Shown here: one piece after another, positions 4,422-62,075 of the stretch
Position numbering within the stretch: position 1 is the first letter of the stretch
Layout of the letters: each line of letters opens with the position of its first letter
Source: Acholeplasma brassicae
GTDB lineage: Bacteria; Bacillota_I; Bacilli_A; Acholeplasmatales; UBA5453
Assembly: GCF_000967915.1 (NCBI RefSeq)
Contig: NC_022549.1
Coordinates: forward strand, 531,522-595,521
Reading direction: 5' to 3'
DNA length: 64,000 nt
The notes under the pieces: model-generated
Told to the model about the DNA's origin: nothing
Seen by the model: the letters and a program-made list of their open reading frames with translations, nothing else
Databases searched by the model: none
Made by a program: the position numbers and the translations under genes

Positions 4422-5780
4422 ATGGAAAATAGATTAAACACAGGTTCACAAATTGAATTAGAAATCAAAAAATTAGGAATTAATGGGGAAGGCATCGGCT
4501 ATTATGAAAAAAAAGCCGTTTTTGTTGATTACGCCCTACCAGGCGAATTAGCCTACGTTGAAATCACGGATGATTTTAAAACATATTATAAAGCCAAACT
4601 GATTAAAACCATCAAAGAAAGCAAAAGTCGTATCACGCCATTTTGTCCAATCTACTTTGAATGTGGGGGATGTCAAACCCAACACATGGCGTATGAAGAT
4701 ACGTTACTACATAAAAGAGACTTAATTCTACAAGCGATTAAACGCTACGTCAAAGTACCGTTTAATACCAAAAAAGTAGATAAAGCGATTGGGATGGATA
4801 ACCCAAGTCACTACCGTAATAAAGCAAGCTTACCAGTTCAATATAAAGATGGTAAGAACGTCATCGGTATGTATCAAGCAGGCACAAATCACTTAGTTGA
4901 TTTTAAGGACTGCCCAGTACAAGACAATGACATCAACAAGTTTTTCAACTTGATTTTAAATCAAATGGAAAAACGAAAAATGAATGCCTTTAATCGTGGA
5001 GGCAACATCCGTTTTATCGTCATTCGTAAAACCAAACTAACCAATGAAATCCAAATCTCATTCATCGTTAATGAATCCTCAGAAGACGTCATTGAACTTG
5101 GTAAATACATGAAAGAAAAATTTGTTGAAGTTAGCTCGGTTTATGAAGTCATTAACAAAGATGTTAAATCTAGAGAATTCTTCACTAATGATAAAACATT
5201 AATTGCTGGTAATGAAACTGTCACTGAAGAAATGAACGGTATTACATTTAAGCTAAAACCAGACGCATTCTTCCAATTAAACACCACACAAGCAGACAAA
5301 CTTTATCAACTGATTGTTGAAAAAGGCGAATTTACTAAAAACGACATCGTTGTGGATGCTTATAGTGGGATCGCACCGATTGCCTTGTACGTTGCACCGC
5401 ATGTGAAAAAAGTGTACGCCATTGAAGCATTAAAAGCATCACACGAAAGTGCGATTGAGACCATTAAAGAAAATAATCAAGAAAACATTATACCAATGCT
5501 AGGTGATGTTAAAGAAGTACTTAATAAGAACAGAAACATCAAACCTGATGTGATTGTTTTTGATCCACCAAGAACTGGCTTAGGCCGTGCAGTGACGGAC
5601 TTCTTATTAAAACATAAACCGAAGAAGATTGTTTATGCTTCATGTAACCCATCGACATTAGCTAAAGACCTAGATGAGTTATTAAAAGCTTATGAAGTTA
5701 AATCAATCACACCACTCGATATGTTTCCTTATACAAGTCACGTTGAGAGTGTGACATTACTTACATTAAAAACGGCATAA
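4422..5780 (+). CDS. rlmD: 23S rRNA (uracil-C5)-methyltransferase RlmD/RumA family
   Basis: N-terminal TRAM domain. Fe-S cysteine cluster CPIYFECGGCQ. SAM-methyltransferase motifs VFDPPRTGL and ASCNPSTL. Confidence 0.85.
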   Translation: MENRLNTGSQIELEIKKLGINGEGIGYYEKKAVFVDYALPGELAYVEITDDFKTYYKAKLIKTIKESKSRITPFCPIYFECGGCQTQHMAYEDTLLHKRDLILQAIKRYVKVPFNTKKVDKAIGMDNPSHYRNKASLPVQYKDGKNVIGMYQAGTNHLVDFKDCPVQDNDINKFFNLILNQMEKRKMNAFNRGGNIRFIVIRKTKLTNEIQISFIVNESSEDVIELGKYMKEKFVEVSSVYEVINKDVKSREFFTNDKTLIAGNETVTEEMNGITFKLKPDAFFQLNTTQADKLYQLIVEKGEFTKNDIVVDAYSGIAPIALYVAPHVKKVYAIEALKASHESAIETIKENNQENIIPMLGDVKEVLNKNRNIKPDVIVFDPPRTGLGRAVTDFLLKHKPKKIVYASCNPSTLAKDLDELLKAYEVKSITPLDMFPYTSHVESVTLLTLKTA

Positions 5781-5880
5781 CAAAGACATAAATAAAATAG
5801 AACAAGAAGCATTTACCCCTTAAAAACTGGGTTAAATGCTTCTTTTTATAATTTTTGTGTAATGTGTAAACATAAATATA
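5720..5880. repeat. Junction repeat copy 1: native 3' end of rlmD (…DMFPYTSHVESVTLLTLKTA*) plus its terminator. This is the prototype of the direct repeats found at about 16.9, 23.1 and 26.1 kb.
   Basis: Contains the sequence cacgttgagagtgtgacattacttacattaaaaacggcataacaaag…agaagcatttacccc…gggttaaatgcttcttttt. It recurs with 80–90% identity three more times. Confidence 0.8.
5806..5847 (+). terminator. Rho-independent terminator of rlmD
   Basis: Hairpin gaagcatttacccc/gggttaaatgcttc followed by a T run. Confidence 0.7.
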
Positions 5881-5908
5881 TGCTTTAAGCATATATTTAT
5901 GTTTACAC
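5864..5908. repeat. Perfect 45-bp palindrome gtgtaaacataaatatatgcttt|aagcatatatttatgtttacac at the island junction
   Basis: Two 22-nt arms are exact reverse complements. The motif TGT(G/T)AAACATA recurs at the other junction copies. Confidence 0.8.
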
Positions 5909-6006
5909 TAAGTACAGGTTTTTGGTATCAGTTCACATTCGAAGTACTATTATTTATTCATAATTCGTTCACATTATTATTGTATATTGATTATGAGGTA
6001 TTCAAC

Positions 6007-6933
6007 ATGAAAGTAAAAAAAATACGTAAAAGGTTTTTTCTAATTGTACTTATTTTATCCGTTTCAATATTCTTGCAAGGACTTAATCAAAATATAAAAG
6101 TCAATCAGTTAATAAGAGATTTTAAAGAACGAGGTATAGAGGGAGAGACAGTAACCATCTATTTTGATAATGGGATGGAAGAAATAAGAATGTATCACCC
6201 AGTCGAAAGAATCAATGAATATGAGAAAGCGGATACACGTAGCCTTTTTTATACAACCAAAGATGAACCATTTATTGGTAAAAAAGGGGATATATTTGTG
6301 ACTCAGGAATCACCTTTTCCAAACATATTCGGTTTTCATCAATTGATGAGTTTTTTTGTTGGAGGACACGCTGCACTGAATAATGGTAACAATCAATTCA
6401 TTGAAGCTGTAGGCTTCCCAAAAGATGATGAAAGTATCTTTGATATAATCAAAGACCCTTCAGATGGTACACATGATTATTCAGTTGGTGTAAGACAATC
6501 TTCTACTAATTATTGGATGTTGCCATATTTTAGAGGAGAGAACGACTTGTCATATCCTTATTATGGTTCTTATTACAGAGAAAAATTCGTAGTATTAAGA
6601 GTAAATAATATAGATGAAGAAAAACTGGATCAAACTATGTCATATGCCAATGAACATTTAGAAAATCGTTCATTATATAATTTCCTTTTCATTATGGACA
6701 CAAAAAACAAATTCTACTTTACTGATTTTATAAGTCGTTCATACAGATATGGGTTAAGTAAGAATAGTTCAGATAAAAACTATCCAAAAACCCTAAATGA
6801 TAATGGTTTTGTAACAACTGTTAATGATCTTATCTTATCAAAGGATACATATATTACTGCTTATGTAGAAAACACAGATGGAATTAGACACATCTACTAT
6901 TTAGAAGATGAAGGATTGACATCTAATGAATAG
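6007..6933 (+). CDS. Hypothetical secreted/membrane-anchored protein; first gene of the inserted island
   Basis: Start taken at MKVKKIRKRFFLIVLILSVSIF (signal/TM). The annotated upstream start at 5899 overlaps the palindrome. No recognisable motif. Confidence 0.4.
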   Translation: MKVKKIRKRFFLIVLILSVSIFLQGLNQNIKVNQLIRDFKERGIEGETVTIYFDNGMEEIRMYHPVERINEYEKADTRSLFYTTKDEPFIGKKGDIFVTQESPFPNIFGFHQLMSFFVGGHAALNNGNNQFIEAVGFPKDDESIFDIIKDPSDGTHDYSVGVRQSSTNYWMLPYFRGENDLSYPYYGSYYREKFVVLRVNNIDEEKLDQTMSYANEHLENRSLYNFLFIMDTKNKFYFTDFISRSYRYGLSKNSSDKNYPKTLNDNGFVTTVNDLILSKDTYITAYVENTDGIRHIYYLEDEGLTSNE

Positions 6934-16763: not shown

Positions 16764-16899
16764 AAAGTAGAAATTCATCGAAGTATAAATCAAATGAGTG
16801 TAGCAAATGAATATGTTTCTCATCATTAATGTTAGATATATTATATAATATGTTCCCACACCAGAAAAAGTCTGGAATTGGGGAACATAAAATGGCTAA

Positions 16900-17100
16900 A
16901 AATATGTTTCCGACATACACGAACCGACAAATTTTCGAGCAATCAGATATACTCCACGCACGTTGAAAGTGTGACACTGCTTTCTTTAAAAACAGCTTAA
17001 CAAAGCCATTCATAAAATAGAAAAAGAAGCATTTATCCCTTAAAAACTGGGATAAATGCTTCTTTTTTACTTTTTGCCCAATGTGGAAACATATCGAAAT
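16900..17100. repeat. Junction repeat copy 2: degenerate rlmD 3' end (NMFPTYT…HVESVTLLSLKTA*) plus terminator
   Basis: Contains cacgttgaaagtgtgacactgctttctttaaaaacagcttaacaaagccattcataaaatag…agaagcatttatccc…gggataaatgcttc and ccaatgtggaaacatat. Confidence 0.8.
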
Positions 17101-17404
17101 CATTGTGGGTCATCAAACTATGCTCAAAGCATATATTTTCTTGAGTGTGAGCACATCTTTTTGCTAAAAAATTATATCACTACACCTAGGGTAAACATCT
17201 TAGTTAAGCCACCCTTTGTGTGATATGTTTCCACAATGATTGGTTCAGTTTTTAAGAACTCAAAACGTCGTTCTTTGAACTCATTGTCTGAATAATTCTT
17301 GGTTCCAGCAATACAGTATACGATCTCATTTGGACTGACTGGTATCATTTTATAGATGAATGTTATAAATGTACTCAATATATCAAAATCTAGCACATCG
17401 ATGA

Positions 17405-18307
17405 CTAAATTCTTTTACCTAAAATCTCACCTATTTTATCCATACGTTTTTTGGTGTCGTAATTTTTTACGTGTTCAAGTTCAAGCTTGTTAATCTCTGC
17501 GGTTAGAAATTTAAGTCGATCAGAATATTCTCTATACTTTGCATTAAATATTGATTCTGGAATATCTGGTGTTTTTACTTTTGTATCAATTAAGTTTGAT
17601 AATGCTATTTCGTTTTCATCTCTTTCTAATGTTAACCTTTCAATGATACCTTGGACATCATCGACTTTGATGGTTGATTTAATTACCCTTTGAATGGTTG
17701 ACATGATATCTAGATCTTTTAAGAAGACTTTGTTTAGCATATGGATTGTTGTTGCTTCAATAAGATCTTGACGACTCGCCTTGGCGCTACAGTTTGCCTT
17801 ACCATCAATGTAGCTACCGCACTGTTGCATCACCCTTTGTGATGGCTTACCGTAGTTCCAGTAACGTCTTTTTAATGTTCTGCCGCATTCACTACAAATA
17901 ATCATTGCTGTTAAAGGATACGTTCTACCATATTTTGAGAGGTTCTTATCTTCACCGATTCGTACCTTAGCTCTATCTTTTCTAATGCGTTGAGCTAGTT
18001 CAAATGTTTCTTTATCAATGATTGCCTCATGACTATTCTCTGTATAATAAGTAGGTGCATGATTTTTATTCTTAACTCTTGTGTGGTTCAGGTAGTCTAT
18101 ACTGATTGTTTTTTGCTGCAGCATATCACCCATGTATTTTTCATTTTTTAGAATGGTTGTAATCGTTGAAAGTCGCCACTTTCTTTTACCAGCACCTGTC
18201 TTTGCACCCATCTCAATGAGTTGCTCTGCAATTTTAGCTGGACCAAAATCACTAATGTACAAATTGAATATGAGTTTAACAATCTGTGCTTCCTCAGGTA
18301 CAACCAC
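17405..18307 (-). pseudogene. Large serine recombinase fragment: recombinase domain, zinc ribbon and coiled-coil only; catalytic N-domain missing
   Basis: Begins at VVPEEAQIVKLIF, the start of the recombinase domain. Zinc-ribbon CSECG…C present. No resolvase catalytic domain upstream. Confidence 0.7.
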
Positions 18308-19324
18308 AATCGATTTATGGGGTACACAAAAGATGAAGAAGGAAACCTAATCATTGTACCTGAAGAGGCTGAAATTATTAAGCGCATTTACAGAGAGTAC
18401 CTTGAGGGTAAAAGCCTAGCAGGCATTGGTAGGGATCTTTAGAAGGACGGTATTTCGACAGCTGCAGGAAAACCAAGATGGCGAATGGAGACCATCAAGA
18501 AGATTCTCTTGAATGAAAAGTACATCGGGGATGCCCTATTACACAAGACCTTCACCGTGGATTTTCTAACAAAGAAAAGAGTTAAGAATGAAGGCCATGT
18601 CCCACAGTATTATGTTGAAAATAGCCATGAAGCGACCATACCAAAGGAACTATTTTTACAGGCTCAGGAAGAACTTCATCGCAGGAATAATATTTACACA
18701 GGAACAGATAAAAACAAAAGAATCTATAGCAGTAAATATGCTTTGAGCACCATAACCTTCTGCGGGGATTGCGGGGACATTTACAGACGGGTGTATTGGA
18801 ATATACGCGGTAGAAAAGAGTTTGTATGGCGATGTGTCACAAGAATCGAGCAAGGCCCTGAAACGTGCAAGAACCGGACGGTAAAAGAAGGAGATTTATA
18901 TGATGCGGTTATGACTGCCATTAATAGACTCCTTGCCGGTGGAGATAACATGATAAGAACACTAGAAGAAAACATCCATGCGGTAATTGGCGACACCGTA
19001 GAATATAAGATTTCAGAGATTAATGCTTTGCTTGAAGAAAAGCAGAAAGAAGTGATCAGCCTTGCCAACAAGGGTAAAGATTACGATTTTCTCGCAGATG
19101 AGATAGATAGTCTTCGTGAAAAGCGTCAGAGTTTACTTGTGGAAGATGCATCCTTAAGTGGTGAGAATGATCGGATCGACGAACTTATAGGATTTATCCG
19201 CAGGAACAAATACCGTACTCTGAGATATGATGATACCCTAGTAAGGAAGATTATCCAGAATGTTAGTGTTTATGATGACCACTTTGTAATATGCTTTAAA
19301 TCTGGAATTGAAATGGAAGTATGA
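18221..19324 (+). pseudogene. Second, diverged large serine recombinase fragment, 5'-truncated and interrupted by an in-frame TAG at 18440–18442
   Basis: GYTKDEEGNLIIVPEEAEIIKRIY…GIGRDL*KDGISTAAGKPRW…, followed by zinc ribbon CGDCG. ORFs 18221–18442 and 18485–19324 share one frame. Confidence 0.7.
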
Positions 19325-23009: not shown

Positions 23010-23245
23010 ATGTTGGATATGTTTCCAACTACGAGTGTGGATATGTCCACCTTAACCATAGGGGTTGAGAACTCAGTTTTGATAGCTATCAAGGCAACTC
23101 GAAACACGTTGAGAGTGTGACATTACTTACATTAAAAACGGCTTAACAAAGCCATTCATATAATAGAACAAGAAGCATCAAATTCTTTAAATAGGATTAA
23201 ATGCTTCTTTTTTTGTTTTATGCGTAATGTGGAAACATCAAAAGA
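23010..23245. repeat. Junction repeat copy 3 (degenerate rlmD 3' end plus terminator)
   Basis: Contains gatatgtttccaactacgag…cacgttgagagtgtgacattacttacattaaaaacggcttaacaaagccattcata…agaagcatcaaattc…gattaaatgcttc and gtaatgtggaaacatc. Confidence 0.8.
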
Positions 23246-23351
23246 TGCATTAAACATATATTTTGCTTTAGCAAGGAAACACTCATCCGCCAATAATATA
23301 TTGATTTTCTCCAGATAATAGCATATAATAAAATTAAGTGGAGGAAATAAT

Positions 23352-25934: not shown

Positions 25935-26190
25935 CCAAGTATACGATATAATTTATGTTGCTTTGGTATTATGATCAAGTTTCAACCTAATAAAGTTAAA
26001 CATATTTTGGCTCATTTTGATGTTTCTTCAATACATACAAGGTTGATTTTGCAAGCAATCTAGTCGTATCAACGCACGTAGAGAGTGTGACATTGCTTAC
26101 ATTAAAAACGGATTAACAAAGCCATTCGTACAATAGAACAAGAAGCATCTAACCCCCTAAATAGTAATTAAATGCTCCTTTTTTTAGATG
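25935..26190. repeat. Junction repeat copy 4: about 125-bp inner arm plus degenerate rlmD 3' end plus terminator
   Basis: Contains cacgtagagagtgtgacattgcttacattaaaaacggattaacaaagccattcgta…agaagcatctaaccccc…taattaaatgctcc. The inner arm is repeated at 27535–27665. Confidence 0.8.
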
Positions 26191-27534: not shown

Positions 27535-27665
27535 ATACTGAATTAGGTTGCTTTGGTTTTTTGATGGTTTTCAAGCCTGTAAAGGCAAATATATATCGGT
27601 CGATTTTGATGTTACTGTGATACACAAAAGGTTCAATTCACAAGCAGTTCGGTCGTATCAGCGGT
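27535..27665. repeat. Partial junction repeat (inner arm only), homologous to 25935–26070
   Basis: ggttgctttggttttttgatggttttcaagcctgtaaagg…caagcagttcggtcgtatcagcgg matches gttgctttggtattatgatcaagtttcaacctaataaag…caagcaatctagtcgtatcaacgcacg. Confidence 0.6.
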
Positions 27666-52653: not shown

Positions 52654-52739
52654 GTGGGCGTGGCGGAATGGTAGACGCGCATGTTTGAGGGGCATGTGGC
52701 TTAAAGGCTGTGTGAGTTCAAGTCTCATCGTCCACACCA
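52654..52739 (+). tRNA. tRNA-Leu (anticodon GAG), class II tRNA with a long variable arm
   Basis: Acceptor stem gtgggcg/cgtccac with one G·U, 3-bp D stem, anticodon stem catgt/gcatg with loop ttGAGgg, long variable arm, T arm gtgag-ttcaagt-ctcat, and a 3' ACCA. Confidence 0.8.
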
Positions 52740-52909
52740 TATTGAATGAAATGGTTTGATACAAAAGCGATTTACTAATCGCCTAAGGTATCGAATCTTT
52801 TTTTTGTTTTCTACCGCCATATATAATTACGTTTTAACAAACTTAAAAAAAGTGCTTGACATTTAAATTACGTTTGTGTAAACTTAAATTATGAAAGTGA
52901 GAGGTAGTT

Positions 52910-54589
52910 ATGGAAAATAAAAATTTAGTATGGGAATTTGCAAACAAAGTCAGAGGACGTGTGCCTGAAGAAATGGCAGTTGAATTTGTTATTTCATTTG
53001 CATATGATTATTGCAACAGAAATGATTTAATACCAGGAAGTGATACAGAATTACTTAACATCGCTGGAGAATCATTGGAACGAATACCAAGTGATCTAAA
53101 ATTTGATTTAGAAAATCTGTTTGTGGACTTAAGTTTCAATGAAATAAAAGGAATCGTTTCTAGTTCTCTATTTATAAAACAGAGATTTATGGATAATTCG
53201 AATGATAATCTGTTGGCTTTAGCTTCGGAGTTACTTGAACTATCGAATGGTGATTCACTTTTTGATTTAGGTAGTGGATTAGGTAGTTTTTTAATTGGTA
53301 CATTGAAATTAGCTCAGGAACGTTCAATTGAGTTGTCTGCTTTATATGGTGTGGAGATTAACTATAATCAACATGCACTTTCTAAGATGATACTAGAAAT
53401 ATTCACCTTTGATTCTTCGGTAAAAAGCAAGATTAACTATGCTAATATCCTAACCGATAAATACGAACTAACTTATAATAAAGGGTTTGTCTATCCACCT
53501 TTAGGTATGAAGTTGATGGGTAATGATCTAAACTATATTTCTATTTTCAAAAACATTGTTCTATCGACTCGAAACTCTGTTGAATGGATATTTATAGATA
53601 AATTATTGAATAATTTAAAAGGTGACGATGCTAGAGCGGTAGCACTTGTTACTGGTCGTACGTTATTTAGTGCAGTTGATAGAGATTATAGGGACGAAAT
53701 ACTAAAGAGTGGCATGCTTGAAGGTATCATTGAGTTACCACAAGGAATTGTCGATAATACATCGATCAAGTTATTCTTACTTATCTTTAGTAAAAATAAT
53801 AAGAATGTTCGTCTATTTGATGCGAGTATGTTCTCATCAAAAAGAAAGTTTAATGAAACTATTAAAGTAGATGTGAAACAAATTATAGATTTCTATTATG
53901 GAAAAGATGTAGCTAAAAAAGATGTTTCAGATTTAACTGATTTATCTAACTGGATTCCTTCGACAGCACTATTAACAATAGATTCACCAAAAAATGGTGT
54001 TAAATTGAGTGAAGTTGCACATGTTTTTACAGGCTCTCAATATACAGTCAGAAACTTTCAAGAAGTATTGACTGATAAAAAAACCGGTTATAAACTTCTC
54101 ACATCGAGTGATATACAAGATGGACTCATTGATGAATCAAATCTGCAAAACATCGATAATAAAGATGGTAAGTTAGATAAATTTGCATTGGAATATGATG
54201 ATGTCATTATGACAAGCAAATCATCGAAGGTTAAAATAGCAGTCATCGATTTTGAACCAAAGGATAAAATTATTGTAACTGGTGGTATGATTATTGTTCG
54301 TGTTGAGAAGAGTAAATTAAATCCAACATTTCTTAAGGTTTTCTTAGAATCAGATCAAGGACAATTATTATTAAAGAGTATTCAAAAAGGTATATCGATA
54401 ATTACAATTAACGCTACAGAACTTTCGAATATAATTATCCCACTACCTCAACTTGATGTTCAATATAATATATCTAAAAAATATAATAGAAAACTATCTT
54501 CTTTAATGGCACTTAAGGCAGAAATTCTAAAGATAGAAGACGAACTCAAAAACTTCTATTATGAAGAAATTGAGGAGGTACTATCTTAG
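52910..54589 (+). CDS. Type I HsdM-like N6-adenine methyltransferase fused to a single HsdS-type target-recognition domain; non-canonical motif IV
   Basis: HsdM_N-like start (VWEFANKVRG). Motif I DLGSGLGSFL. FVYPPLG where NPPF/Y is expected. LLIFSKNNKNVRLFDAS parallels the IVSKNKNKERLGKIQLIDAS segment of the adjacent hsdM. C-terminal TRD plus conserved HsdS-type coiled-coil. Confidence 0.6.
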   Translation: MENKNLVWEFANKVRGRVPEEMAVEFVISFAYDYCNRNDLIPGSDTELLNIAGESLERIPSDLKFDLENLFVDLSFNEIKGIVSSSLFIKQRFMDNSNDNLLALASELLELSNGDSLFDLGSGLGSFLIGTLKLAQERSIELSALYGVEINYNQHALSKMILEIFTFDSSVKSKINYANILTDKYELTYNKGFVYPPLGMKLMGNDLNYISIFKNIVLSTRNSVEWIFIDKLLNNLKGDDARAVALVTGRTLFSAVDRDYRDEILKSGMLEGIIELPQGIVDNTSIKLFLLIFSKNNKNVRLFDASMFSSKRKFNETIKVDVKQIIDFYYGKDVAKKDVSDLTDLSNWIPSTALLTIDSPKNGVKLSEVAHVFTGSQYTVRNFQEVLTDKKTGYKLLTSSDIQDGLIDESNLQNIDNKDGKLDKFALEYDDVIMTSKSSKVKIAVIDFEPKDKIIVTGGMIIVRVEKSKLNPTFLKVFLESDQGQLLLKSIQKGISIITINATELSNIIIPLPQLDVQYNISKKYNRKLSSLMALKAEILKIEDELKNFYYEEIEEVLS

Positions 54590-55110
54590 TGTATAATGCA
54601 AAGCAGTTATCCGAGATAAAACAAAAAATTATTAGAAAAATCACGAGTGAAGTTGACCGTGCTAATGAAGATGGATTAATTGAAGAGATTTTAGAACGAT
54701 ATGGCATTGTATTTGAGGAAACAAGCATTTCTGTAAACACAAGACTAATGAAAATCCTAGTATTCGGATCATTAGCTGGAAAGAAAAAAGACTTCCAAGG
54801 GGTATTAAATAGACTAGGTATTAACCTAAACAATGTCGAGTTTATTAATGACTATTCAGAACTCAAGAGATACCCTGTTGATACACTTAGGTTTTCAACA
54901 AAGTATTCAGACTTACTAATAGGACCTGTTCCGCATAGTCAAACAGGCATGGGTGATAATTCTAGTCTTATAGCGACAATAAAAAGTAATCCAGCAGAGT
55001 ATCCACGTGTACAACTTTTAGAAGCAAATAACAAATTAAAAATTACTAAAACAAACTTCGAAAAAGCCATAACATCAACACGTTATTTTGATGCATTAAA
55101 TGAATATTAG
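54589..55110 (+). CDS. Hypothetical 173-aa protein, translationally coupled to the M·S-fusion gene (taGTG overlap)
   Basis: GTG start overlaps the upstream TAG by 1 nt. No recognisable motif. Confidence 0.45.
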   Translation: MYNAKQLSEIKQKIIRKITSEVDRANEDGLIEEILERYGIVFEETSISVNTRLMKILVFGSLAGKKKDFQGVLNRLGINLNNVEFINDYSELKRYPVDTLRFSTKYSDLLIGPVPHSQTGMGDNSSLIATIKSNPAEYPRVQLLEANNKLKITKTNFEKAITSTRYFDALNEY

Positions 55111-55252
55111 ACTATCAATAGGTTTTATAAAAATAGAAGAATGATATTGTTTAATAAACAATTAAAGGTAAAAGTTGCTAAAATATGTTATAATTTTTTT
55201 AATATGAAGAAAGATTATTGTATTGCTAATGAAATAAGAAAGAAGAGATAAT

Positions 55253-57034
55253 ATGACAACTGCAGAGATAGGTAAATTAACTACAACAAATATTCAAGAA
55301 AAAGCAAATCTAATATGGGCAATCGCTAATCATCTTGTTGGATTGTTTAAGCCACATGAGTACGGTAAGGTTATCTTACCGATGACGGTACTAAAAAGAT
55401 TCGATGACGCTTTAAAAGAAACGAAACAGGAAGTTTTATCACTCAATAAGAAATTAAATGAACAAAAAACAATTGATACCATTAGAGATGGATTATTATG
55501 CAAAACTACGGGATATGATTTTTATAATGTTAGTCCATTTACATTTGCAAACCTTTTAGCTGATCCAGATAACATCGCATCTAATTTTGATACATACTTA
55601 AAAGGATTTTCGGATAATGTAAAAGATATTATTTCCAACTTTAAATTTGAACAAGTCCTAGAAACGATGCATAAAGGGAATGTCCTTTATGTTGTTATAC
55701 AGGAGTTTAATTCTAAGAAAGCTGATATGCATCCGGATAAAATCACCTCCATGGACATGGGCTATATTTTTGAAGAACTTATCCGTAAGTTCTCTGAATC
55801 CTATGATGAACAAGCAGGAGCACACTTTACTTCAAGAGACATCATATATTTAATGGCTGAGCTATTAGTCGCAAATGAAAAAGAATACATTAAACAAAAT
55901 GGTGTCGTTAAAACCGCATATGATATGGCCATGGGTACATCCCAAATGTTAGGGTGCTTAGATGAAAAAATGATAGAAATCAACCCGGATTCAAAGTTAT
56001 CTCTATTTGGTCAAGAATTTAACCCAGAAACATATGCAATCGCAAAAGCTGACATGCTAATCAAAGGTGGAAATGCTCAAAATATGAAGTTTGGTGATAC
56101 ATTGAATGATGACCAATTTTCTAACTATGAGTTTGATTACATAATTTCAAATCCTCCATTTGGTATTGACTGGAAAAAAGAAGAAAAAGAAGTTAAACAA
56201 GAATATTCAAAGCTTGGATATGAGGGTAGATTTGGACCAGGCTTGCCTGCAATTAGTGATGGACAAATGCTCTTCCTACTTAATGGTGTAAAGAAATTAA
56301 AAGAAGGTTCTGGTAGAATGGCAATCATTCAAAACGGGTCTTCACTCTTTACTGGAGATGCTGGTAGTGGTCCGAGTGAAATTAGAAAATACTTAATTGA
56401 AAGTGATTTGTTAGAAGCAATTATTCAATTACCAACTGACCTTTTCTACAATACTGGTATATCAACATATATTTGGATAGTTTCTAAAAATAAAAATAAA
56501 GAACGATTAGGAAAAATTCAACTCATTGATGCGTCTAATTGCTATGTGAAAAGAAGAAAAAACATTGGTAAGAAGCGTGTTGACCTAGATGATACATCAA
56601 TTGACTTAATTACTAAAGCCTATTTAGATTTCAAAGAAGTAAAATATGAAGAAAATGACTTAGTTGTTGAATCGAAAATCTTTGATAATGATTTCTTTGG
56701 GTACACAAAAGTAACTGTTGAATCACCAATTACAGATGAAAATGGTAAACCAATTCTTAAAAAAGGAAAACTTCAAGCAGACTCTAAGAAACGTGATACT
56801 GAATTGGTACCATTACAAGAAAATATTGAAGCTTTCTTTAAAGATAATGTATTACCTTTTAATTCATCAGCTTGGATGGATCGAAGCAAAGATAAAGTCG
56901 GATATGAAATACCATTTACAAGACTGTTTTATAAGTTTATTCCACCAAAGGCATCTTCAGATATATTCGCTGAAATCAAACAACTTGAAGAAGAAGAAAC
57001 ACTACTTATGAAGGAGTTGTTTGGGGATGAATAA
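55253..57034 (+). CDS. hsdM: Type I restriction-modification system methyltransferase subunit
   Basis: HsdM N-terminal domain, motif I, NPPFGIDW, and the conserved IWIVSKNKNK…LIDAS block. Confidence 0.9.
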   Translation: MTTAEIGKLTTTNIQEKANLIWAIANHLVGLFKPHEYGKVILPMTVLKRFDDALKETKQEVLSLNKKLNEQKTIDTIRDGLLCKTTGYDFYNVSPFTFANLLADPDNIASNFDTYLKGFSDNVKDIISNFKFEQVLETMHKGNVLYVVIQEFNSKKADMHPDKITSMDMGYIFEELIRKFSESYDEQAGAHFTSRDIIYLMAELLVANEKEYIKQNGVVKTAYDMAMGTSQMLGCLDEKMIEINPDSKLSLFGQEFNPETYAIAKADMLIKGGNAQNMKFGDTLNDDQFSNYEFDYIISNPPFGIDWKKEEKEVKQEYSKLGYEGRFGPGLPAISDGQMLFLLNGVKKLKEGSGRMAIIQNGSSLFTGDAGSGPSEIRKYLIESDLLEAIIQLPTDLFYNTGISTYIWIVSKNKNKERLGKIQLIDASNCYVKRRKNIGKKRVDLDDTSIDLITKAYLDFKEVKYEENDLVVESKIFDNDFFGYTKVTVESPITDENGKPILKKGKLQADSKKRDTELVPLQENIEAFFKDNVLPFNSSAWMDRSKDKVGYEIPFTRLFYKFIPPKASSDIFAEIKQLEEEETLLMKELFGDE

Positions 57035-58301
57035 ACTAAATATCGAAATCCCATATATTGAAAACCTTCCTAAATCATGGCGAATAATACCTAATCGATA
57101 TCTTTTCATCGAAAACAAGAATAGTGTTGGAAAAGACTTTTCTAAGTATCAATTATTATCTCTAACAACTACTGGTGTAAAAGAAAAAGATATTAATAGT
57201 TCTGGTGGCAAGGTGCCTGAATCATATGAAAAATATTTATCCATCAATAAAAATCAGTTGATTTTTTGCTTATTTGACCTGGATTTATCGGCAGTTTTTT
57301 CAGGTATTTCTAAGTTTGACGGGATGATTACTTCAGCATATAATGCTTATGATTCGACTTCATTAATATGTAATGAATATGCTGATTATTGGTTTCAGTA
57401 TGTTTTTACTAATAGATACTATATGATTTATTCGAAAAACATCAGATACTCAGTAACTGGTCAAGCATTTAAGGCTATATATACGCCTGTTCCACCTATA
57501 AATACTCAAAAAGAAATAGCACTTTTCTTAGATAATAAAACTAATAAGATAGATCAACTTATCAATAATCAACAGCAACAAATCGAAAAACTTAAAGAAT
57601 ATAAGCAATCACTAATTAGTGAGGTTGTTACTAAAGGATTAGATCCAAATGTTGAATTTAAGGATAGTGGAATTGAAATTATTGATAAGATTCCAAAAGA
57701 TTGGGGAATTATTAAAATGAAATATTTAGGCGAATCTCGTAATGGCTTAACGTACAATCCGAGTGATATGGTCGATGATGGTGAAGGAATTCTAGTTTTG
57801 AGATCGTCCAATGTTAGGGATGGGAAATTAATCTTTGATGATAATGTTTATCTTAAAATGCAGATTAAAGAAGACTTAATGCTAAAAAACGGTGATATTC
57901 TTATTTGTTCAAGAAATGGTAGCAGAGATTTAATAGGAAAAAATGCAATCATCGAAAATGTTGGACTATGTTCATTTGGTGCCTTTATGATGGTGTTTAG
58001 AGTTTCAAAAGCAAATCCGAAGTACATTAAGTATATCCTAGATAGCTTTATATTTAACTACTATCTTGGGACATATTTAACAGCGACAATTAACCAGTTA
58101 ACCTTATCTAATTTCAACAACATGAAAGTTATTTATACGACTAATTCCGATGAGCAAGAGAAAATAATTAGTTATTTAGATGAAAAATGTCAAAAGATTG
58201 ACCAATTAATCGAGTTAAAAGCAAAAAAACTACTAAATCTTGAGGAATTCAAAAAATCTCTCATCTATGAATACGTAACAGGTAAGAAAGAAGTATCATA
58301 A
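57021..58301 (+). CDS. hsdS: Type I restriction-modification specificity subunit (two TRDs)
   Basis: 426 aa with two variable TRDs separated by conserved coiled-coil repeats (…LKEYKQSLISEVVTKGL… and …LEEFKKSLIYEYVTGK). Overlaps hsdM by 14 nt. Confidence 0.85.
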   Translation: MGMNKLNIEIPYIENLPKSWRIIPNRYLFIENKNSVGKDFSKYQLLSLTTTGVKEKDINSSGGKVPESYEKYLSINKNQLIFCLFDLDLSAVFSGISKFDGMITSAYNAYDSTSLICNEYADYWFQYVFTNRYYMIYSKNIRYSVTGQAFKAIYTPVPPINTQKEIALFLDNKTNKIDQLINNQQQQIEKLKEYKQSLISEVVTKGLDPNVEFKDSGIEIIDKIPKDWGIIKMKYLGESRNGLTYNPSDMVDDGEGILVLRSSNVRDGKLIFDDNVYLKMQIKEDLMLKNGDILICSRNGSRDLIGKNAIIENVGLCSFGAFMMVFRVSKANPKYIKYILDSFIFNYYLGTYLTATINQLTLSNFNNMKVIYTTNSDEQEKIISYLDEKCQKIDQLIELKAKKLLNLEEFKKSLIYEYVTGKKEVS

Positions 58302-58724
58302 ATGAGAGATGCTAAATCAATTATTGGAGGAATTATATTATTGATACTTATTGCTACTGGAGTATTCTCGGTCCTACTAGATTTGACTAGTGAATTCATT
58401 AAACTGACTCTATGGATATTTCAATTAAGTTTAACTGATTTTGGATTATCTCCATCAATTGAAATCATTGTTAAATCACTGACTTTCATTCTATCTTATG
58501 CTTTGGTCGGTATTATATTTAGTGCAATTAGACTATTTAATTCAGATGTAATGAAATATGCTTATTTTGTAGTTTCAACGATGATTGGATTTGCATTGAG
58601 TGCACTCATTATGTTTTTACAAGAACATATCATCATAATTTCTTGGAGTATTTTAGGGATAACTATCATTACGATTTTCACAATAGTATTTTTAGTAAAG
58701 AAAAGAAACACTTTAAAGGGGTGA
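58302..58724 (+). CDS. Small 4-TM membrane protein inserted between hsdS and hsdR
   Basis: ATG immediately follows the hsdS stop (taaATG). Its stop is 4 nt before the hsdR start. 140 aa with four hydrophobic helices. Confidence 0.5.
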   Translation: MRDAKSIIGGIILLILIATGVFSVLLDLTSEFIKLTLWIFQLSLTDFGLSPSIEIIVKSLTFILSYALVGIIFSAIRLFNSDVMKYAYFVVSTMIGFALSALIMFLQEHIIIISWSILGITIITIFTIVFLVKKRNTLKG

Positions 58725-58728
58725 ATCT

Positions 58729-61722
58729 ATGAAAGATAATGAAAAAAGGTTTGAAGAGGATATAGAGTCTCATTTGATCAATCATGAGTATAGAAAACTG
58801 TCTATGCAAGGCTATGATGTATCAAAAGGTATTTATCTAGATATCCTTGTAGAGTTTATCAAAAAGACTCAAAGTAAATCATGGGAACGATATGAAAAAT
58901 ATTATGGTGATGAAGCACCTAATAAACTATATCGTAGACTAGAAGATTCTATTAGTCATCACGGGCTTCTTCATGTATTAAGAAATGGCATAAAAGATAT
59001 GGGGATAGACCTTTTTATCTGTTTCTTTAAACCTGAATCAGAGTTGAATCCAACTTTAGTTGAACGTTATGAAGGTAACATATTAGGTGTAACAAGACAA
59101 TTTGCATATTCACCTTTCAATAACAATACGATTGATATGGTCCTATCCATTAATGGTATTCCTTTTATTGCAATCGAGCTGAAAAACCAACTAAAGGGAC
59201 AAGATTATCGAAATGCCATGCATCAATGGCGTTACAATCGTGATCCAAAAGAACTGATATTCAGATTCAATCATAGAATATTGGTTTATTTTGCTGTAGA
59301 CCTATATGAAACATGGATGACGACAGAACTTAAAGGTACTGATACACATTTCTTACCTTTCAATCAAGGATCTAATGGTTCTGGTGTCAGTGGTGGCGCT
59401 GGTAATCCGCAAAACCCTTATGGTTATACCACATCATATCTTTGGGAAGATATATTGTCAAAAGCCTCTATTATAGATATACTTCATCGTTTTATTTCTA
59501 ACCCTAAGGATTCTAAAAAAATTATATTTCCTAGATATCATCAGTATGATGTCGTTAAGAAAGTATTAGCGGATGTTAAAGATAATGGTGTTGGTCAAAA
59601 GTATTTAATTGAGCATAGTGCAGGTTCTGGTAAATCAAATTCTATCGCTTGGATTGCATATAGATTGGCATCTGTCCATGATATAGATGATAAACCAATA
59701 TTTGATTCAGTTATCATTGTTACTGACCGTGTAGTACTTGATTCACAACTACAAGATACGATTAACGGCTTTGAACATAGAGCCGGATTAGTTGAAGCAA
59801 TTGATGATAAAAAGCGTTCAAGAGGCCTTACGGAAGCAATTAACGATAAGAAACGTATTATTATTTGTACCATTCAAAAATTCTTGTTTGCCTATAAAGA
59901 TTTCGATGAAATGGAAGGTAGAAAGTTTGCGATTATCGTGGATGAAGCGCATCAAGGTCAAACTGGTGCAAGTGCTAAGACCTTAAGAAGAGCACTGATT
60001 GATAAGAAAGTTGCAATTAAAGAGTATGCAGAGATGGAAGGTATTGAAGAAGATGAAGTTGACGATACGGATGAACTTGTTGCAGAAGTATTAGCCCAAG
60101 GACAACACAGTAATCAATCTTTCTTTGCATTCACTGCAACGCCTAAAAATAAGACAATTGAACTTTTTGGCAGAAGAAATCCATCCACTGGCAAATATGA
60201 ACCATTTCATGTCTACTCGATGAGACAAGCCATTGAAGAAGGATTTATTTTAGATGTACTCAAATACTATACAACCCTTCAAGATCAATTTAAGATAGTT
60301 AGAACCACAAGGGATAATCCTGAGGTCATAGAAGGACAAGCTAAGAGAGTCTTAGTTCGCTATTATAAAGAACATGGGTTTACCATTCACAAGAAAACCG
60401 AACTTATAATGGATAACTTCTTAAATAATGGTCAATTTAGAATTGATGGTAAGGCAAAGGCTATGGTAATTGCAGATTCTAGACCAAATGCAGTCAGATA
60501 CTATCAGGCTATTCAAGAATACATAAGAAACAATCCAGAGATAACTTCAAAGATTGGTGTTTTAGTTGCGTTTTCTGGAGAGGTTAAGCTAGATGGTAAA
60601 TCATATAGAGAAGCTGAGATGAATATCGATAGTGACGGCCATTTAATTAACTCAGATAAGAAACTTAGAAAAGCATTTAGAAGTGATAAATTCAATATTT
60701 TAGTGGTTGCAAATAAATATCAAACAGGATTTGATGAACCGTTACTACATTCCATGTATGTTGATAAAAAACTTCATGGTGTGAATGCTGTTCAAACGCT
60801 TTCTAGATTGAATCGCGTATATCCAGGTAAAGTAGACACTTTTGTCATGGATTTTGTAAACACGCATGAAGACATGAAAAAGTCATTCCAACCATTCTTT
60901 GAAACAACCTATTTAGATGGCCAAACAGATTATAATCGTGTCTATGATTTAAGAACTAAGATACACAGTTATATGCTATATAACGATCAAGATGTGGATC
61001 TTTTTGCCAAAATCAAAATAGATGCAGCAAAGAAACAAGACGATAAAGCACTTGGTCGTGTAACAAGTATACTAAAACCTGTCACAGATCAGTATCTTGA
61101 GTTGGATGAGAAGCAAAAATATGAATATAGGGATCTATTAAGAAAATTCAATCATGCCTATTCATATATCACCCAAATCGTAAGAATTAATGATAAAGAA
61201 CTATTTAAAGAGTTTATGTTCATTTCTTATCTAATCAATCTATTACCTAAAGATACTGCAGAAAAAATTAGTATTGATGACAAGATTAATCTAGAGTTTG
61301 CCAAACTTAAAGAGACATATAAAGGAAGCATAGAACTAGAAAAAACATCAGTTGATTTAAAACCTGAGCAATCAGTAGATGCAAAAAGAAAACCTAAATC
61401 TAAAGACACTCTTCAAAGTATCATTGATAAGGTTAATGAGCAATATATGGGACAATTCACTGATAGTGATAAAGTCATTATTTCTGGTATTTTTGAGATG
61501 TTTATGAATGATCCAGAAGTTAAAAAATATGCTCAATATGCCAAAGAAAATAATCCAGAAATGTTCATTAAGAGTTTATTCCCTGATAAATTCAAGGATA
61601 TAGCCTTAAGATTATTTACAGAAAATCACGAGTCATTTGAAAAATTATTTACAGACACATCCTTTTACGAAAGAGTAATGGATGCAATGGCTAAAGAATT
61701 GTACAAGAAATTAAGAAAGTAG
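58729..61722 (+). CDS. hsdR: Type I restriction enzyme endonuclease/helicase subunit
   Basis: N-terminal restriction domain and SF2 helicase motifs (EHSAGSGKS Walker A, DEAH-like IIVDEAHQG). 997 aa. Contains an in-frame 11-aa tandem duplication at about 59795–59860. Confidence 0.9.
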   Translation: MKDNEKRFEEDIESHLINHEYRKLSMQGYDVSKGIYLDILVEFIKKTQSKSWERYEKYYGDEAPNKLYRRLEDSISHHGLLHVLRNGIKDMGIDLFICFFKPESELNPTLVERYEGNILGVTRQFAYSPFNNNTIDMVLSINGIPFIAIELKNQLKGQDYRNAMHQWRYNRDPKELIFRFNHRILVYFAVDLYETWMTTELKGTDTHFLPFNQGSNGSGVSGGAGNPQNPYGYTTSYLWEDILSKASIIDILHRFISNPKDSKKIIFPRYHQYDVVKKVLADVKDNGVGQKYLIEHSAGSGKSNSIAWIAYRLASVHDIDDKPIFDSVIIVTDRVVLDSQLQDTINGFEHRAGLVEAIDDKKRSRGLTEAINDKKRIIICTIQKFLFAYKDFDEMEGRKFAIIVDEAHQGQTGASAKTLRRALIDKKVAIKEYAEMEGIEEDEVDDTDELVAEVLAQGQHSNQSFFAFTATPKNKTIELFGRRNPSTGKYEPFHVYSMRQAIEEGFILDVLKYYTTLQDQFKIVRTTRDNPEVIEGQAKRVLVRYYKEHGFTIHKKTELIMDNFLNNGQFRIDGKAKAMVIADSRPNAVRYYQAIQEYIRNNPEITSKIGVLVAFSGEVKLDGKSYREAEMNIDSDGHLINSDKKLRKAFRSDKFNILVVANKYQTGFDEPLLHSMYVDKKLHGVNAVQTLSRLNRVYPGKVDTFVMDFVNTHEDMKKSFQPFFETTYLDGQTDYNRVYDLRTKIHSYMLYNDQDVDLFAKIKIDAAKKQDDKALGRVTSILKPVTDQYLELDEKQKYEYRDLLRKFNHAYSYITQIVRINDKELFKEFMFISYLINLLPKDTAEKISIDDKINLEFAKLKETYKGSIELEKTSVDLKPEQSVDAKRKPKSKDTLQSIIDKVNEQYMGQFTDSDKVIISGIFEMFMNDPEVKKYAQYAKENNPEMFIKSLFPDKFKDIALRLFTENHESFEKLFTDTSFYERVMDAMAKELYKKLRK

Positions 61723-62075
61723 TAGTAACGGCGATTAATTCTGTAAAGAATCAATAGCTTTTTATATAAGTTTATAAATTTATATTGTAGTTATGAGAAA
61801 GGCTACTTGTTGTTATTATCGAGCATTAGGCACGAAGAGTATAAATCTTTCTTATACTAAAATAAGCTCTTCAAAATAGATTATAGTAACCACAGTTTAT
61901 TTTAATTGACTATAAAGTATCAAGAAGCAGTTGATATCATTAATGAAGAATAAGACGAAATGTGAATATCAAATATTACTAATTTAAATTTTAGTATAAT
62001 CTAATTAGATGATATAATTAAGATAAATTCAATGGTTTCTGTATTTTATTAATTATTAAAGAATGGAAGATAGTC

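What the first reader, a model, noticed from the sequence alone, without database searches (positions are those of the whole stretch)
5864..5908. Perfect 45-bp palindrome at the first island junction; shared ATATGTTTCC/TGTGGAAACAT motifs at every junction copy
gtgtaaacataaatatatgcttt|aagcatatatttatgtttacac is an exact 22+22-nt inverted repeat placed exactly where island DNA starts. Related half-sites recur at the other junctions: aatgtggaaacatat at 17078 with its inverse gatatgtttccacaatg at 17221 (enclosing a 125-bp segment with an internal ctatgctcaaagcatat core), atatgttcccaca/tggggaacat at 16846–16890, and atgtggaaacatc at 23228. A motif also sits inside the rlmD end (gatatgtttcc, 5720). 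These look like recombinase-binding arms of an att site, or a MITE-like mini-element.
Basis: seen in the sequence. Interest (0 to 1): 0.55.

Follow-up and report, generated by a model that had tools for sequence, protein, structure and literature searches.

The report
Collapsed end of rlmD-targeting island
The perfect 45-bp palindrome is real, but it is a genome-specific scar left where a serine-recombinase gene was lost from the end of a mobile island inserted in the rlmD gene; it is not the recombination site, which lies 146 bp upstream inside rlmD.

Summary
The palindrome (5864-5908, 22+1+22, perfect) and every listed motif copy are present and far beyond chance. The window holds a tandem array of at least four cassettes behind rlmD. 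Each junction repeats the rlmD tail, a terminator and a motif region. Relatives in Acholeplasmataceae-like genomes carry an intact 572-aa large serine recombinase (LSR) convergent with rlmD. Their island end reads: replacement tail, terminator, M1, M2 (AATGTGGAAACAT, 21-nt phase), short hairpin, M3, LSR stop, then an inverted M inside LSR codons (VETYH). In window copy 1 the LSR is gone. The 86 bp between the hairpin and the inverted M are deleted, and the right arm is the exact complement of the left. The palindrome was found nowhere else. The recombination core is a 50-bp dyad centred on CA of the rlmD His codon (5739-5740). It is the best symmetry centre in 13 of the 14 island-island junctions scored. 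The "MITE" at 17078-17237 is not one, because its right arm is LSR coding sequence. The M motif equals the rlmD DMFP codons and sits at fixed offsets on both sides of each core. It may bind the recombinase, but this is untested. Overall this is a new member of a known kind (SCC-like, rumA-targeting elements).

The parts
4422..5780 (+). rlmD, 23S rRNA m5U methyltransferase (TRAM + tRNA_U5-meth_tr domains); target gene of the islands
   Evidence: the closest public RlmD proteins are named Acholeplasmataceae/Tenericutes
5719..5728 (+). ATATGTTTCC, the D-M-F-P codons of rlmD; outer part (-20..-11) of the attB-type left arm; same 10-mer as motif M
5715..5764 (.). attL-type recombination core; inferred crossover dinucleotide CA at 5739-5740 (His codon of HVES)
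   Evidence: by homology to 13 island-island junctions whose best dyad centre is this CA
5741..5849 (+). Junction copy 1: last 13 rlmD codons plus stop, then a long stem-loop with T-run (about 5804-5849) that looks like a two-way terminator. The module recurs at 16961-17069, 23107-23214 and 26077-26184
   Evidence: (D1, D2, I19); the terminator function is inferred and the scan tool did not call it (9-nt loop)
5861..5873 (+). M(rev) copy AATGTGTAAACAT; its last 10 nt form the outer part of the left palindrome arm
5864..5908 (.). The perfect 45-bp palindrome: M(rev) + extended family hairpin + inverted M; a collapsed remnant of the M2-hairpin-M3-LSR stop-M4-M5 region
5899..5908 (+). Right-arm end ATGTTTACAC, at the position of M5 (LSR codons VETYH in relatives) but now the exact complement of the left arm
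   Evidence: everywhere else M5 reads ..TTTCCAC..
5921..5935 (+). TTTGGTATCAGTTCA, a 15-nt remnant of the LSR 3' coding region. It is shared exactly with L149, where it follows M5
6007..6933 (+). First cargo gene of island 1 (YycO-like, 308 aa), followed by copZ, copA, lgt-like, a P-type ATPase, CueP, CsoR and a two-component system
16848..16889 (.). Right-end module type A of island 1: M(fwd) ATATGTTCCC, an inner hairpin, then M(rev) GGGGAACATA. The geometry is M-10-AA-10-M
   Evidence: -11.8 kcal/mol, z -5.1
16902..16923 (+). M(fwd) plus 10 nt (ATATGTTTCCGACATACACG-AA), resembling an rlmD left arm
16935..16984 (.). att core of junction 2 (right end of island 1 joined to left end of island 2); CA at 16959-16960
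   Evidence: 12/24 symmetry; near-identical junctions in L141, L137 and L145 score 14-15/24
17080..17157 (+). Uncollapsed left-end module of island 2: M1 17080-17092, degenerate M2 17101-17113, hairpin 17119-17133, M3 17145-17157
17172..18307 (-). Remnant of the large serine recombinase: Recombinase and Zn-ribbon domains, a frameshift near 17400, and no N-terminal catalytic domain. It contains M4 (17189-17199) and M5 (17222-17236)
23017..23026 (+). M(fwd) in the right-end module of island 2 (type C)
23081..23130 (.). att core of junction 3; CA at 23105-23106
23226..23258 (+). Decayed left-end module of island 3: M(rev) 23226-23238 plus a degenerate hairpin
   Evidence: (D4, D9)
26051..26100 (.). 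att core of junction 4 (type B right arm GCAAGCAAT..TCAACG-CA-CGT); CA at 26075-26076; 15/24 symmetry
27569..27663 (+). Right-end module (type B) of the Fic cassette. The arm ends at 27663 and is joined to sequence that is not an rlmD tail
   Evidence: (D3)

Best explanation
The window carries a tandem array of cassettes inserted into the 3' end of rlmD by a 572-aa large serine recombinase (LSR) family: copper island 5.7-16.96 kb, LSR/cadmium island to 23.1 kb, AbiEii/LD-carboxypeptidase cassette to 26.07 kb, and Fic cassette to 27.66 kb. Recombination takes place at a roughly 50-bp dyad centred on the CA of the rlmD His codon. Each island brings its own copy of the last 13 codons plus a terminator, so rlmD stays intact and each junction repeats that module (shown). 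In intact relatives the island end next to rlmD then reads M1, M2 (AATGTGGAAACAT, 21 nt apart), a short hairpin (TATGCTYTAAGCATA), M3, the LSR stop codon, and the LSR C-terminal codons, which contain an inverted M (GATATGTTTCCACA = VETYH) (shown). The palindrome at 5864-5908 is that module after decay. The LSR gene is lost except for 15 nt, one M unit is gone, and the 86 bp between the hairpin and the inverted M are deleted. The right arm has been rewritten as the exact complement of the left arm. This most likely happened by an intrastrand template switch on the quasi-palindrome (inferred). It is therefore a scar with no required present function. The M motif itself is probably a protein-binding site, and the LSR is the best candidate. 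The reasons are that M equals the conserved DMFP-codon part of the rlmD arm the LSR must recognise, and that it occurs in fixed, oppositely oriented sub-terminal sets on both sides of each core (inferred, untested).
For: Array and repeated module.

LSR remnants and intact homologues.

Intact LSR convergent with rlmD: in L005-L008, L151, L152/L153, L154 and L156, where the LSR is 41-68% identical to the window remnant.

Cassettes reshuffled between genomes: Fic, AbiEii-LDcp, the copper-island end and the LSR occur in different orders in other contigs. L141 has the same copper-island end followed by an intact LSR.

Left-end consensus: found at 14 junctions in 12 contigs, and none is palindromic.

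L149/L150: an island-1 relative (YycO-like protein 84% identical, then CopZ) sits behind the rlmD of another host and keeps M1-M2-hairpin-M3-stop-M4-M5 followed by TTTGGTATCAGTTCA. The window shares that exact 15-mer 12 nt after the palindrome. The missing stretch is 86 nt.

L103: its left half, GTGGAAACATAAATATATGCTT, matches the window arm at 21 of 22 positions, but its right side is normal.

Uniqueness: the palindrome is absent from viral contigs and from all 156 fetched loci.

att core: CA is the best of 100 candidate symmetry centres in 13 of the 14 island-island junctions scored, at 14-19 of 24 against a background of about 6. rlmD-proximal junctions score 3-8.

Native-looking tail: the last junction of L001 has a right arm, CA, then a different tail that looks native.

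M enrichment and position: 53 hits in 12 kb of junction zones against 19 in 168 kb elsewhere, at fixed offsets. GGAAACATAT-type sites occur 9 times against 0.38 expected, all in one orientation, in the rlmD-LSR spacers of seven loci.
Against: - No intermediate between the L149 state and the palindrome was found.
- The spacer between the right arm and the 15-nt anchor is 12 nt in the window and 5 nt in L149.
- Apart from that anchor, the right flank shows no significant alignment to the LSR 3' region (score 38 against a shuffle mean of 34.5).
- All four window tails carry a window-specific variant. Copies 1 and 3 are identical for 37 nt after CA, and a sister-strain contig has the copy-3 type tail. 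So the exact crossover used here is uncertain: it could be homogenisation between copies, or a second site near +35.
- Nothing shows what binds M.
- M does not clearly co-vary with the host rlmD arm.
- M decays in cassettes that lack the LSR.
Confidence: 0.72

Rival explanations
1. The palindrome is itself a functional recombinase site: an att site or accessory site where two recombinase subunits bind the two arms.
For: Both arms end in the family motif M. The symmetry is perfect, including a paired G>T / C>A change relative to other copies, which could reflect selection.
Against: It is unique to this genome. Its centre is a single base rather than a 2-bp core. Its M copies point outward, the opposite of the attB arrangement. 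The homology switch and the dyad lie 146 bp upstream. No intact cognate LSR is present in the window.
Confidence: 0.08
2. The M copies are non-functional relics: fragments of rlmD arms accumulated by repeated integration, excision and illegitimate joining. The palindrome would then be a chance by-product.
For: The copy at 16902-16923 resembles a whole rlmD left arm over 20 nt. M decays where the LSR is lost (copies 3 and 4 of the window, L011). There is no clean co-variation with host arms.
Against: GGAAACATATTT sites keep their place just before the LSR stop in LSR lineages only 55-68% identical, while the surrounding spacer diverges. Three otherwise different right-end module types all keep M copies. 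The left-end copies are inverted relative to rlmD and 21-nt phased, which relic accumulation does not explain.
Confidence: 0.25
3. The palindrome is an operator or regulatory hairpin for the downstream YycO-like and copper-resistance genes.
For: It lies about 100 bp upstream of the first cargo gene.
Against: The same cargo in L149/L150 and L148 has no palindrome upstream. The motif follows the island end, not the cargo. No promoter-like or terminator-like site was called on the + strand here.
Confidence: 0.05
4. It is a MITE-like mini-element bounded by ATATGTTTCCACA inverted repeats.
For: A 14-nt inverted repeat at 17080/17223 encloses about 130 bp with an internal hairpin.
Against: In relative L004 the right repeat lies within the intact 572-aa LSR gene, and the same sequence recurs in the other close relatives. 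There are no target-site duplications and no dispersed copies: the hits outside junction zones are at background density.
Confidence: 0.02
5. It is an assembly artefact at a repeat.
For: Several public short-read contigs break exactly in this module (L004, L150, L157, L158).
Against: Both flanks are collinear with homologous loci, and the arms differ from all other copies in the window, so a collapse of other copies cannot produce them.
Confidence: 0.03

Closest known systems
SCC / SCCmec composite islands at rlmH (orfX) mobilised by Ccr large serine recombinases (from established knowledge, not tested here)
   Same: A large serine recombinase integrates at the extreme 3' end of an rRNA methyltransferase gene, which stays intact. 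Elements with and without a recombinase gene form tandem arrays, separated by repeated att-containing sequences.
   Different: The target is rlmD, not rlmH. There is a single 572-aa recombinase at the very end of the element, convergent with the target. The repeated junction module is long (about 200 bp: tail, terminator, M repeats) instead of a repeat of about 15 bp. The hosts are Acholeplasmataceae-like.
rumA/rlmD-targeting elements of streptococci, enterococci and Erysipelothrix (vanG elements and ICE-r, PMC4120198; phiEr670 and GI_Er147, PMC12785378)
   Same: The same target gene and region (the last 11-13 codons), a serine recombinase, tandem insertions, and restoration of the reading frame by element sequence.
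   Different: In those elements the recombinase sits at the right end and is translationally fused to the rumA 3' codons, and GA is the proposed target dinucleotide. Here the recombinase is at the left end and convergent, and the dyad centre is CA, 6 nt upstream. Those papers describe 28-30-bp terminal inverted repeats and no sub-terminal motif sets.
Accessory sub-sites of res sites of small serine recombinases (Tn3/gamma-delta; Sin site II with direct-repeat half-sites), from established knowledge; a functional analogy only
   Same: Extra recombinase-type half-sites tens to about 150 bp from the crossover site, some as direct repeats about two helical turns apart.
   Different: No such sites are known for large serine recombinases. 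Binding here is untested, and distances to the core vary between lineages.
Quasi-palindrome template-switch mutagenesis (Ripley model), from established knowledge
   Same: An imperfect inverted repeat is converted into a perfect one, with the new arm copied from the other arm. This explains the paired G>T / C>A change and the exact symmetry.
   Different: Here it is coupled to an 86-bp deletion. The mechanism is inferred from the product only.

Membership tests
Large-serine-recombinase att site (asked of the palindrome) | Imperfect dyad of about 40-50 bp around a 2-bp non-palindromic crossover core | tested here: not met
   The centre is a single T (5886) and the arms are 22+22. The true dyad with a CA core lies at 5715-5764 and its homologues.
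Large-serine-recombinase att site (asked of the palindrome) | Lies at the point where host and element (or element and element) sequence switch | tested here: not met
   The tail, terminator and motif region on both sides of the palindrome position recur together at the junctions and behind unrelated rlmD genes. The switch is at or near CA.
Large-serine-recombinase att site (asked of the palindrome) | Conserved in related elements | tested here: not met
   No other locus has it.
MITE / miniature transposon | Non-coding unit with terminal inverted repeats, target-site duplication and dispersed copies | tested here: not met
   The right repeat is LSR coding sequence. Copies occur only in junction zones. 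No duplications were seen.
Intrinsic terminator | G+C-rich stem followed by a T-run | tested here: not met
   No terminator-like site was called at 5600-6100. The stem is A+T-rich and no T-run follows.
Known RNA family (Rfam 15) | Score at or above the gathering threshold | tested here: not met
   Only generic hairpin (miRNA) matches were found, at 19-31 bits against thresholds of 44-211.
rlmD/rumA-targeting serine-recombinase island (asked of the whole array) | Large serine recombinase gene (Resolvase + Recombinase + Zn-ribbon domains) at the element end | tested here: met
   A remnant lies at 17172-18307. Intact 572-aa homologues occupy the same position in relatives.
rlmD/rumA-targeting serine-recombinase island (asked of the whole array) | Insertion in the 3' end of rlmD with the reading frame restored by element sequence | tested here: met
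   rlmD is intact. The tail is repeated at each junction. The same tails occur behind rlmD genes only 32-34% identical (L049, L138).
rlmD/rumA-targeting serine-recombinase island (asked of the whole array) | Excision to a circle and re-integration by the recombinase | not testable with these tools
   Only static assemblies were available. The shuffled cassette order between genomes is indirect support.
Accessory (res-like) recombinase binding sites (asked of motif M) | Specific binding of the recombinase and an effect on recombination | not testable with these tools
   Only positional conservation and enrichment could be shown.

The most novel reading that the evidence does not exclude
The sub-terminal M repeats are true accessory binding sites for this large serine recombinase. 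They are copies of the rlmD DMFP-codon arm motif, set in opposite orientation on the two sides of every att core. They would build a higher-order, res-like synapse that controls direction, or lets recombinase-less cassettes be moved in trans. That would make this the first large serine recombinase system with accessory sites. A second dyad at the rlmD stop codon might add a second exchange point for cassette shuffling.
Probability: 0.2. Interest if true: 0.7.

Novelty: new member of a known kind. Interest (0 to 1): 0.35.

Why it matters
The palindrome itself is a decay product and matters little. Its context is more useful. It reveals an undescribed, widespread family of serine-recombinase cassettes that stack behind rlmD in Acholeplasmataceae-like bacteria. 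These cassettes carry copper and cadmium resistance, toxin-antitoxin and Fic genes, much as SCC elements stack behind rlmH in staphylococci. The att core can be read directly from many junctions. The conserved, oriented motif sets offer a concrete, testable question: do some large serine recombinases use accessory sites? That bears on how direction is controlled in these enzymes, which are used as genome-engineering tools.

Tried and rejected
- **DnaA box.** TGTGGAAAC resembles TGTGNAWAA, but the TGTG part is not conserved in the L151, L152 and L156 copies, whereas ..AAACATATTT is.
- **dif/Xer site.** The palindrome has only a loose resemblance to TTATGTAAACT arms and is not at a dif-like position, so this was dropped.
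- **Terminator or known RNA.** Neither was found.
- **Direct homology of the palindrome's right flank to the LSR 3' region.** The local alignment was not significant. Only the 15-nt anchor shared with L149 supports it.
- **Crossover placed from mosaic patterns of the tails.** This was inconclusive, because the tails differ mainly at synonymous positions and look homogenised within genomes.
- **Co-variation of M with each host's rlmD arm.** There were suggestive cases (L151 GCAAACAT, L005 TAAACAT) but also counter-examples (L156, L154, L002).
- **Loose DNA pattern in metagenome and viral contigs.** The pattern ATGCTNNAAGCATATATTT returned mostly chance hits. Real relatives had to be pulled out by blastn.
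- **Annotated phage and plasmid collections.** No match.
- **Exact-protein look-up of the window's RlmD.** Not on record.
- **Nearest-strain contigs.** They stop at the tail, so no empty site was obtained.

Full report
**Observation.** The sequence at 5864-5908 is GTGTAAACATAAATATATGCTT-T-AAGCATATATTTATGTTTACAC, a perfect 22+1+22 palindrome (I20). It is the longest perfect hairpin-type inverted repeat in the window, and block shuffles give arms of 9-12 nt. As single-stranded DNA it folds at -20.3 kcal/mol, z = -8.3. ATATGTTTCC occurs exactly 5 times, all at junctions, against 0.20 expected. With one mismatch allowed the count is no longer significant (12 against 7.9). These copies are parts of one repeated module and are not independent occurrences.

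**Surroundings.** rlmD is at 4422-5780. Its last codons, a long stem-loop with a T-run and about 60 bp beyond recur at about 16.9, 23.1 and 26.1 kb, and partly at 27.6 kb. Four units lie between the copies:
- a copper-resistance island (YycO-like, CopZ, CopA, Lgt-like, P-type ATPase, CueP, CsoR, two-component system);
- a unit with two truncated large serine recombinases plus ArsR/CadC-like and CadA-like genes;
- an AbiEii/LD-carboxypeptidase cassette;
- a Fic cassette.

The recombinase remnant at 17172-18307 (minus strand) lacks its catalytic domain and has a frameshift.

**Relatives.** The remnant has intact 572-aa homologues at 55-91% identity, from Tenericutes, Acholeplasmataceae and Izemoplasmatales metagenome genomes. 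The recombinase gene is convergent with rlmD in L005-L008, L151, L152/L153, L156 and L154 (Acholeplasma equirhinis, recombinase 41% identical), separated by 170-410 bp. One 46% homologue (L155) is not next to rlmD. A loose DNA pattern scan gave mostly chance hits. Blastn against the fetched contigs then pulled out 15 real relatives of the junction module.

In those relatives the same cassettes occur in other orders and next to rlmD genes as little as 32-34% identical to the window's (L049, L138):
- the Fic cassette directly behind rlmD in L001;
- the AbiEii cassette directly behind rlmD in L011;
- the copper-island end followed by an intact recombinase in L141.

This is a modular array of cassettes, some with and most without their own recombinase.

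**Where recombination happens.** I scored dyad symmetry (24-nt arms around a 2-nt centre) at 100 candidate positions in each of 25 junctions. The CA of the His codon in ..CA-CGTTGA.. was the best centre in 13 of the 14 island-island junctions scored, at 14-19 of 24 against a background of about 6. Junctions next to rlmD scored 3-8, as expected for a different host arm. The consensus element site is GCAAGCAAT-N6-GTTTCAACG-CA-CGTTGAAAC-N5-ATTGCTTTC.

Two further observations fit this core. In L001 the last junction is a right arm, CA, then a different, native-looking tail. In window copy 5 the arm ends at that same point and continues into non-tail sequence.

In the window the cores are at 5739/40, 16959/60, 23105/6 and 26075/6. 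By this logic island DNA begins inside rlmD, 146 bp before the palindrome centre. The tail and terminator in front of the palindrome belong to the repeated junction module. This matches published rumA-targeting elements, where serine-recombinase elements insert in the last 11 codons, in tandem, and restore the frame (PMC4120198). rlmD is also the flank of Erysipelothrix prophages (PMC12785378).

One caveat concerns the crossover actually used in this genome's history. All four window tails share a window-specific variant, and copies 1 and 3 are identical for 37 nt after CA. A sister-strain contig (RlmD 99% identical) has the copy-3 type tail. A weaker second dyad sits near +35. So the crossover could have been at that second site, or the copies were homogenised.

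**What the palindrome is.** At 14 junctions in 12 contigs, the island end between the terminator and the recombinase stop reads TTTTTGCCC-AATGTGGAAACAT-ATCGAAATC-AATGTGGAAACAT-CAAAC-TATGCTYTAAGCATA-TATTTTCTTGA-GTGTGAGAACATC-..-stop. That is M1, M2, a short hairpin and M3, all in one orientation. This region is not significantly structured (z -0.3 and -0.7). The last recombinase codons contain a further M-like site and an inverted copy, GATATGTTTCCACA, which encodes V-E-T-Y-H. This explains the '125-bp segment between inverted repeats' at 17078-17237. It is the recombinase 3' end and its downstream region, not a mini-element.

The decisive comparison is L149/L150. This is a relative of island 1 (YycO-like protein 84% identical, then CopZ) sitting behind the rlmD of another host. 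It has lost the recombinase but keeps M1-M2-hairpin-M3-stop-M4-M5, followed by ACGA-TTTGGTATCAGTTCA and the cargo. The window has the same 15-mer at 5921-5935, 12 nt after the palindrome. So the right arm of the palindrome occupies the M5 position. The 86 nt between AAGCATATATTT and ATGTTTCC are missing, and one M unit is missing too.

L103 has a left half, GTGGAAACATAAATATATGCTT, that matches the window arm at 21 of 22 positions, but its right side is normal. In every other locus M5 reads ..TTTCCAC... In the window it reads ..TTTACAC.., the exact complement of the left arm's GTGTAAACAT. The simplest account is that the natural imperfect inverted repeat (M2 + hairpin ... M5) was turned into a perfect one by a template switch that copied one arm from the other and removed the intervening 86 bp. 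This is inferred from the product only. The palindrome occurs in no other fetched locus or viral contig. An almost identical cargo gene (98%) has unrelated upstream sequence in L148.

**The motif.** M equals the D-M-F-P codons of rlmD, which occupy -20..-11 of the host arm of the site. Hits within one mismatch of ATATGTTTCC number 53 in 12 kb of junction zones and 19 in 168 kb elsewhere. They fall at fixed offsets from the CA core:

| Orientation | Offset from CA | Location |
|---|---|---|
| forward | about -20 | rlmD DMFP codons |
| forward | about -50 | right-end module |
| forward | about -110 | right-end module |
| reverse | about -70 | right-end module |
| reverse | about +125 | left-end M1 |
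| forward | about +265 | recombinase codons |

Three different right-end module types all keep M copies. In recombinase lineages only 55-68% identical, GGAAACATATTT-type sites persist between the terminator and the recombinase stop, with the last one about 25 nt before the stop, while the rest of the spacer diverges. Across seven spacers there are 9 sites against 0.38 expected, all in one orientation. The pattern was defined after the fact, and three of the lineages are 75-80% related.

This argues for a protein-binding role. The recombinase is the obvious candidate, because it must read the same sequence in rlmD. The alternative, that these are relics of rlmD arms, remains open.

**Comparison and verdict.** The array works like SCC composite islands at rlmH and like the rumA elements of streptococci. 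It differs in target or layout: a single recombinase at the left end, convergent with the target, and a long repeated module with motif sets. The recombinase's catalytic domain is closest to a conjugative-transposon recombinase structure (3g13). No annotated phage or plasmid record matches the module.

The palindrome fails every defining feature of an att site, a MITE, a terminator and a known RNA. It is a genome-specific scar in a new member of a known kind of element. The unanswered and more interesting question is what the conserved motif sets do.

Noticed in passing
window 18485-19324 (+), next to 17172-18307 (-): A second truncated large serine recombinase lies back-to-back with the first. 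It is only about 32% identical to it (Recombinase + Zn-ribbon domains, no catalytic domain). It is followed by ArsR/CadC-like, P-type ATPase and zf-CopZ genes. It is probably the stump of a different element that replaced the 5' half of the first recombinase.
   Followed up: partly
about +33 to +35 nt from each CA core, e.g. window 5756-5800 and 16976-17020: A second dyad symmetry lies around the rlmD stop codon (ATTGCTTTCTTTAAAAAC-AG-CTTAACAAAGCCAT). Its mean is 10/24 against a background of about 6, and it is present in rlmD-proximal junctions too. It could be a second exchange site or only a coding constraint. Intact relatives also carry a Xer-like tyrosine recombinase.
   Followed up: partly
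window 5741-5777, 23107-23143, 26077-26113; L157 3443-3491: All window copies of the rlmD tail share a variant (..AGTGTGACA..) seen in no other genome. Copies 1 and 3 are identical for 37 nt. A sister-strain contig has the copy-3 type tail. This suggests homogenisation between tandem copies, or a crossover right of +37.
   Followed up: partly
window 16848-16889: The right-end hairpin has the same geometry as the host site (M, 10 nt, 2 nt, 10 nt, inverted M) but with AA in place of CA. In two relatives the paired bases change together (TTCCC/GGGAA against TTTCC/GGAAA). It may be a pseudo-attB.
   Followed up: partly
L004, L005-L008, L141, L156 (islands with an intact recombinase): Intact islands share a module of SHOCT-like small ORF, HTH_3 regulators, a Xer-like tyrosine recombinase, ANT/Bro-N and HTH_17. 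L005-L008 additionally show a Lin1244_N gene and a type I R-M system. Several are filed as viral contigs in IMG/VR. They may be phage-satellite-like or mobilisable islands.
   Followed up: no
L004, L150, L157, L158 (contig ends): Public short-read contigs end exactly inside the repeated tail or hairpin. This module therefore systematically breaks assemblies, and such arrays are probably under-reported.
   Followed up: no
window 52654-63578: tRNA-Leu(GAG) is followed by a low-G+C block (0.29-0.33). The block holds a fused methylase-specificity gene and a type I restriction-modification system (HsdM, HsdS, HsdR). It may be another island at a tRNA gene.
   Followed up: partly
L002 11360-19000: In this Acholeplasma genome a 7-kb recombinase-less cassette sits between rlmD and a 59%-identical recombinase. 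A different terminator is repeated at both junctions, and the island tail supplies only a stop codon. This shows the same array logic in a diverged lineage.
   Followed up: partly
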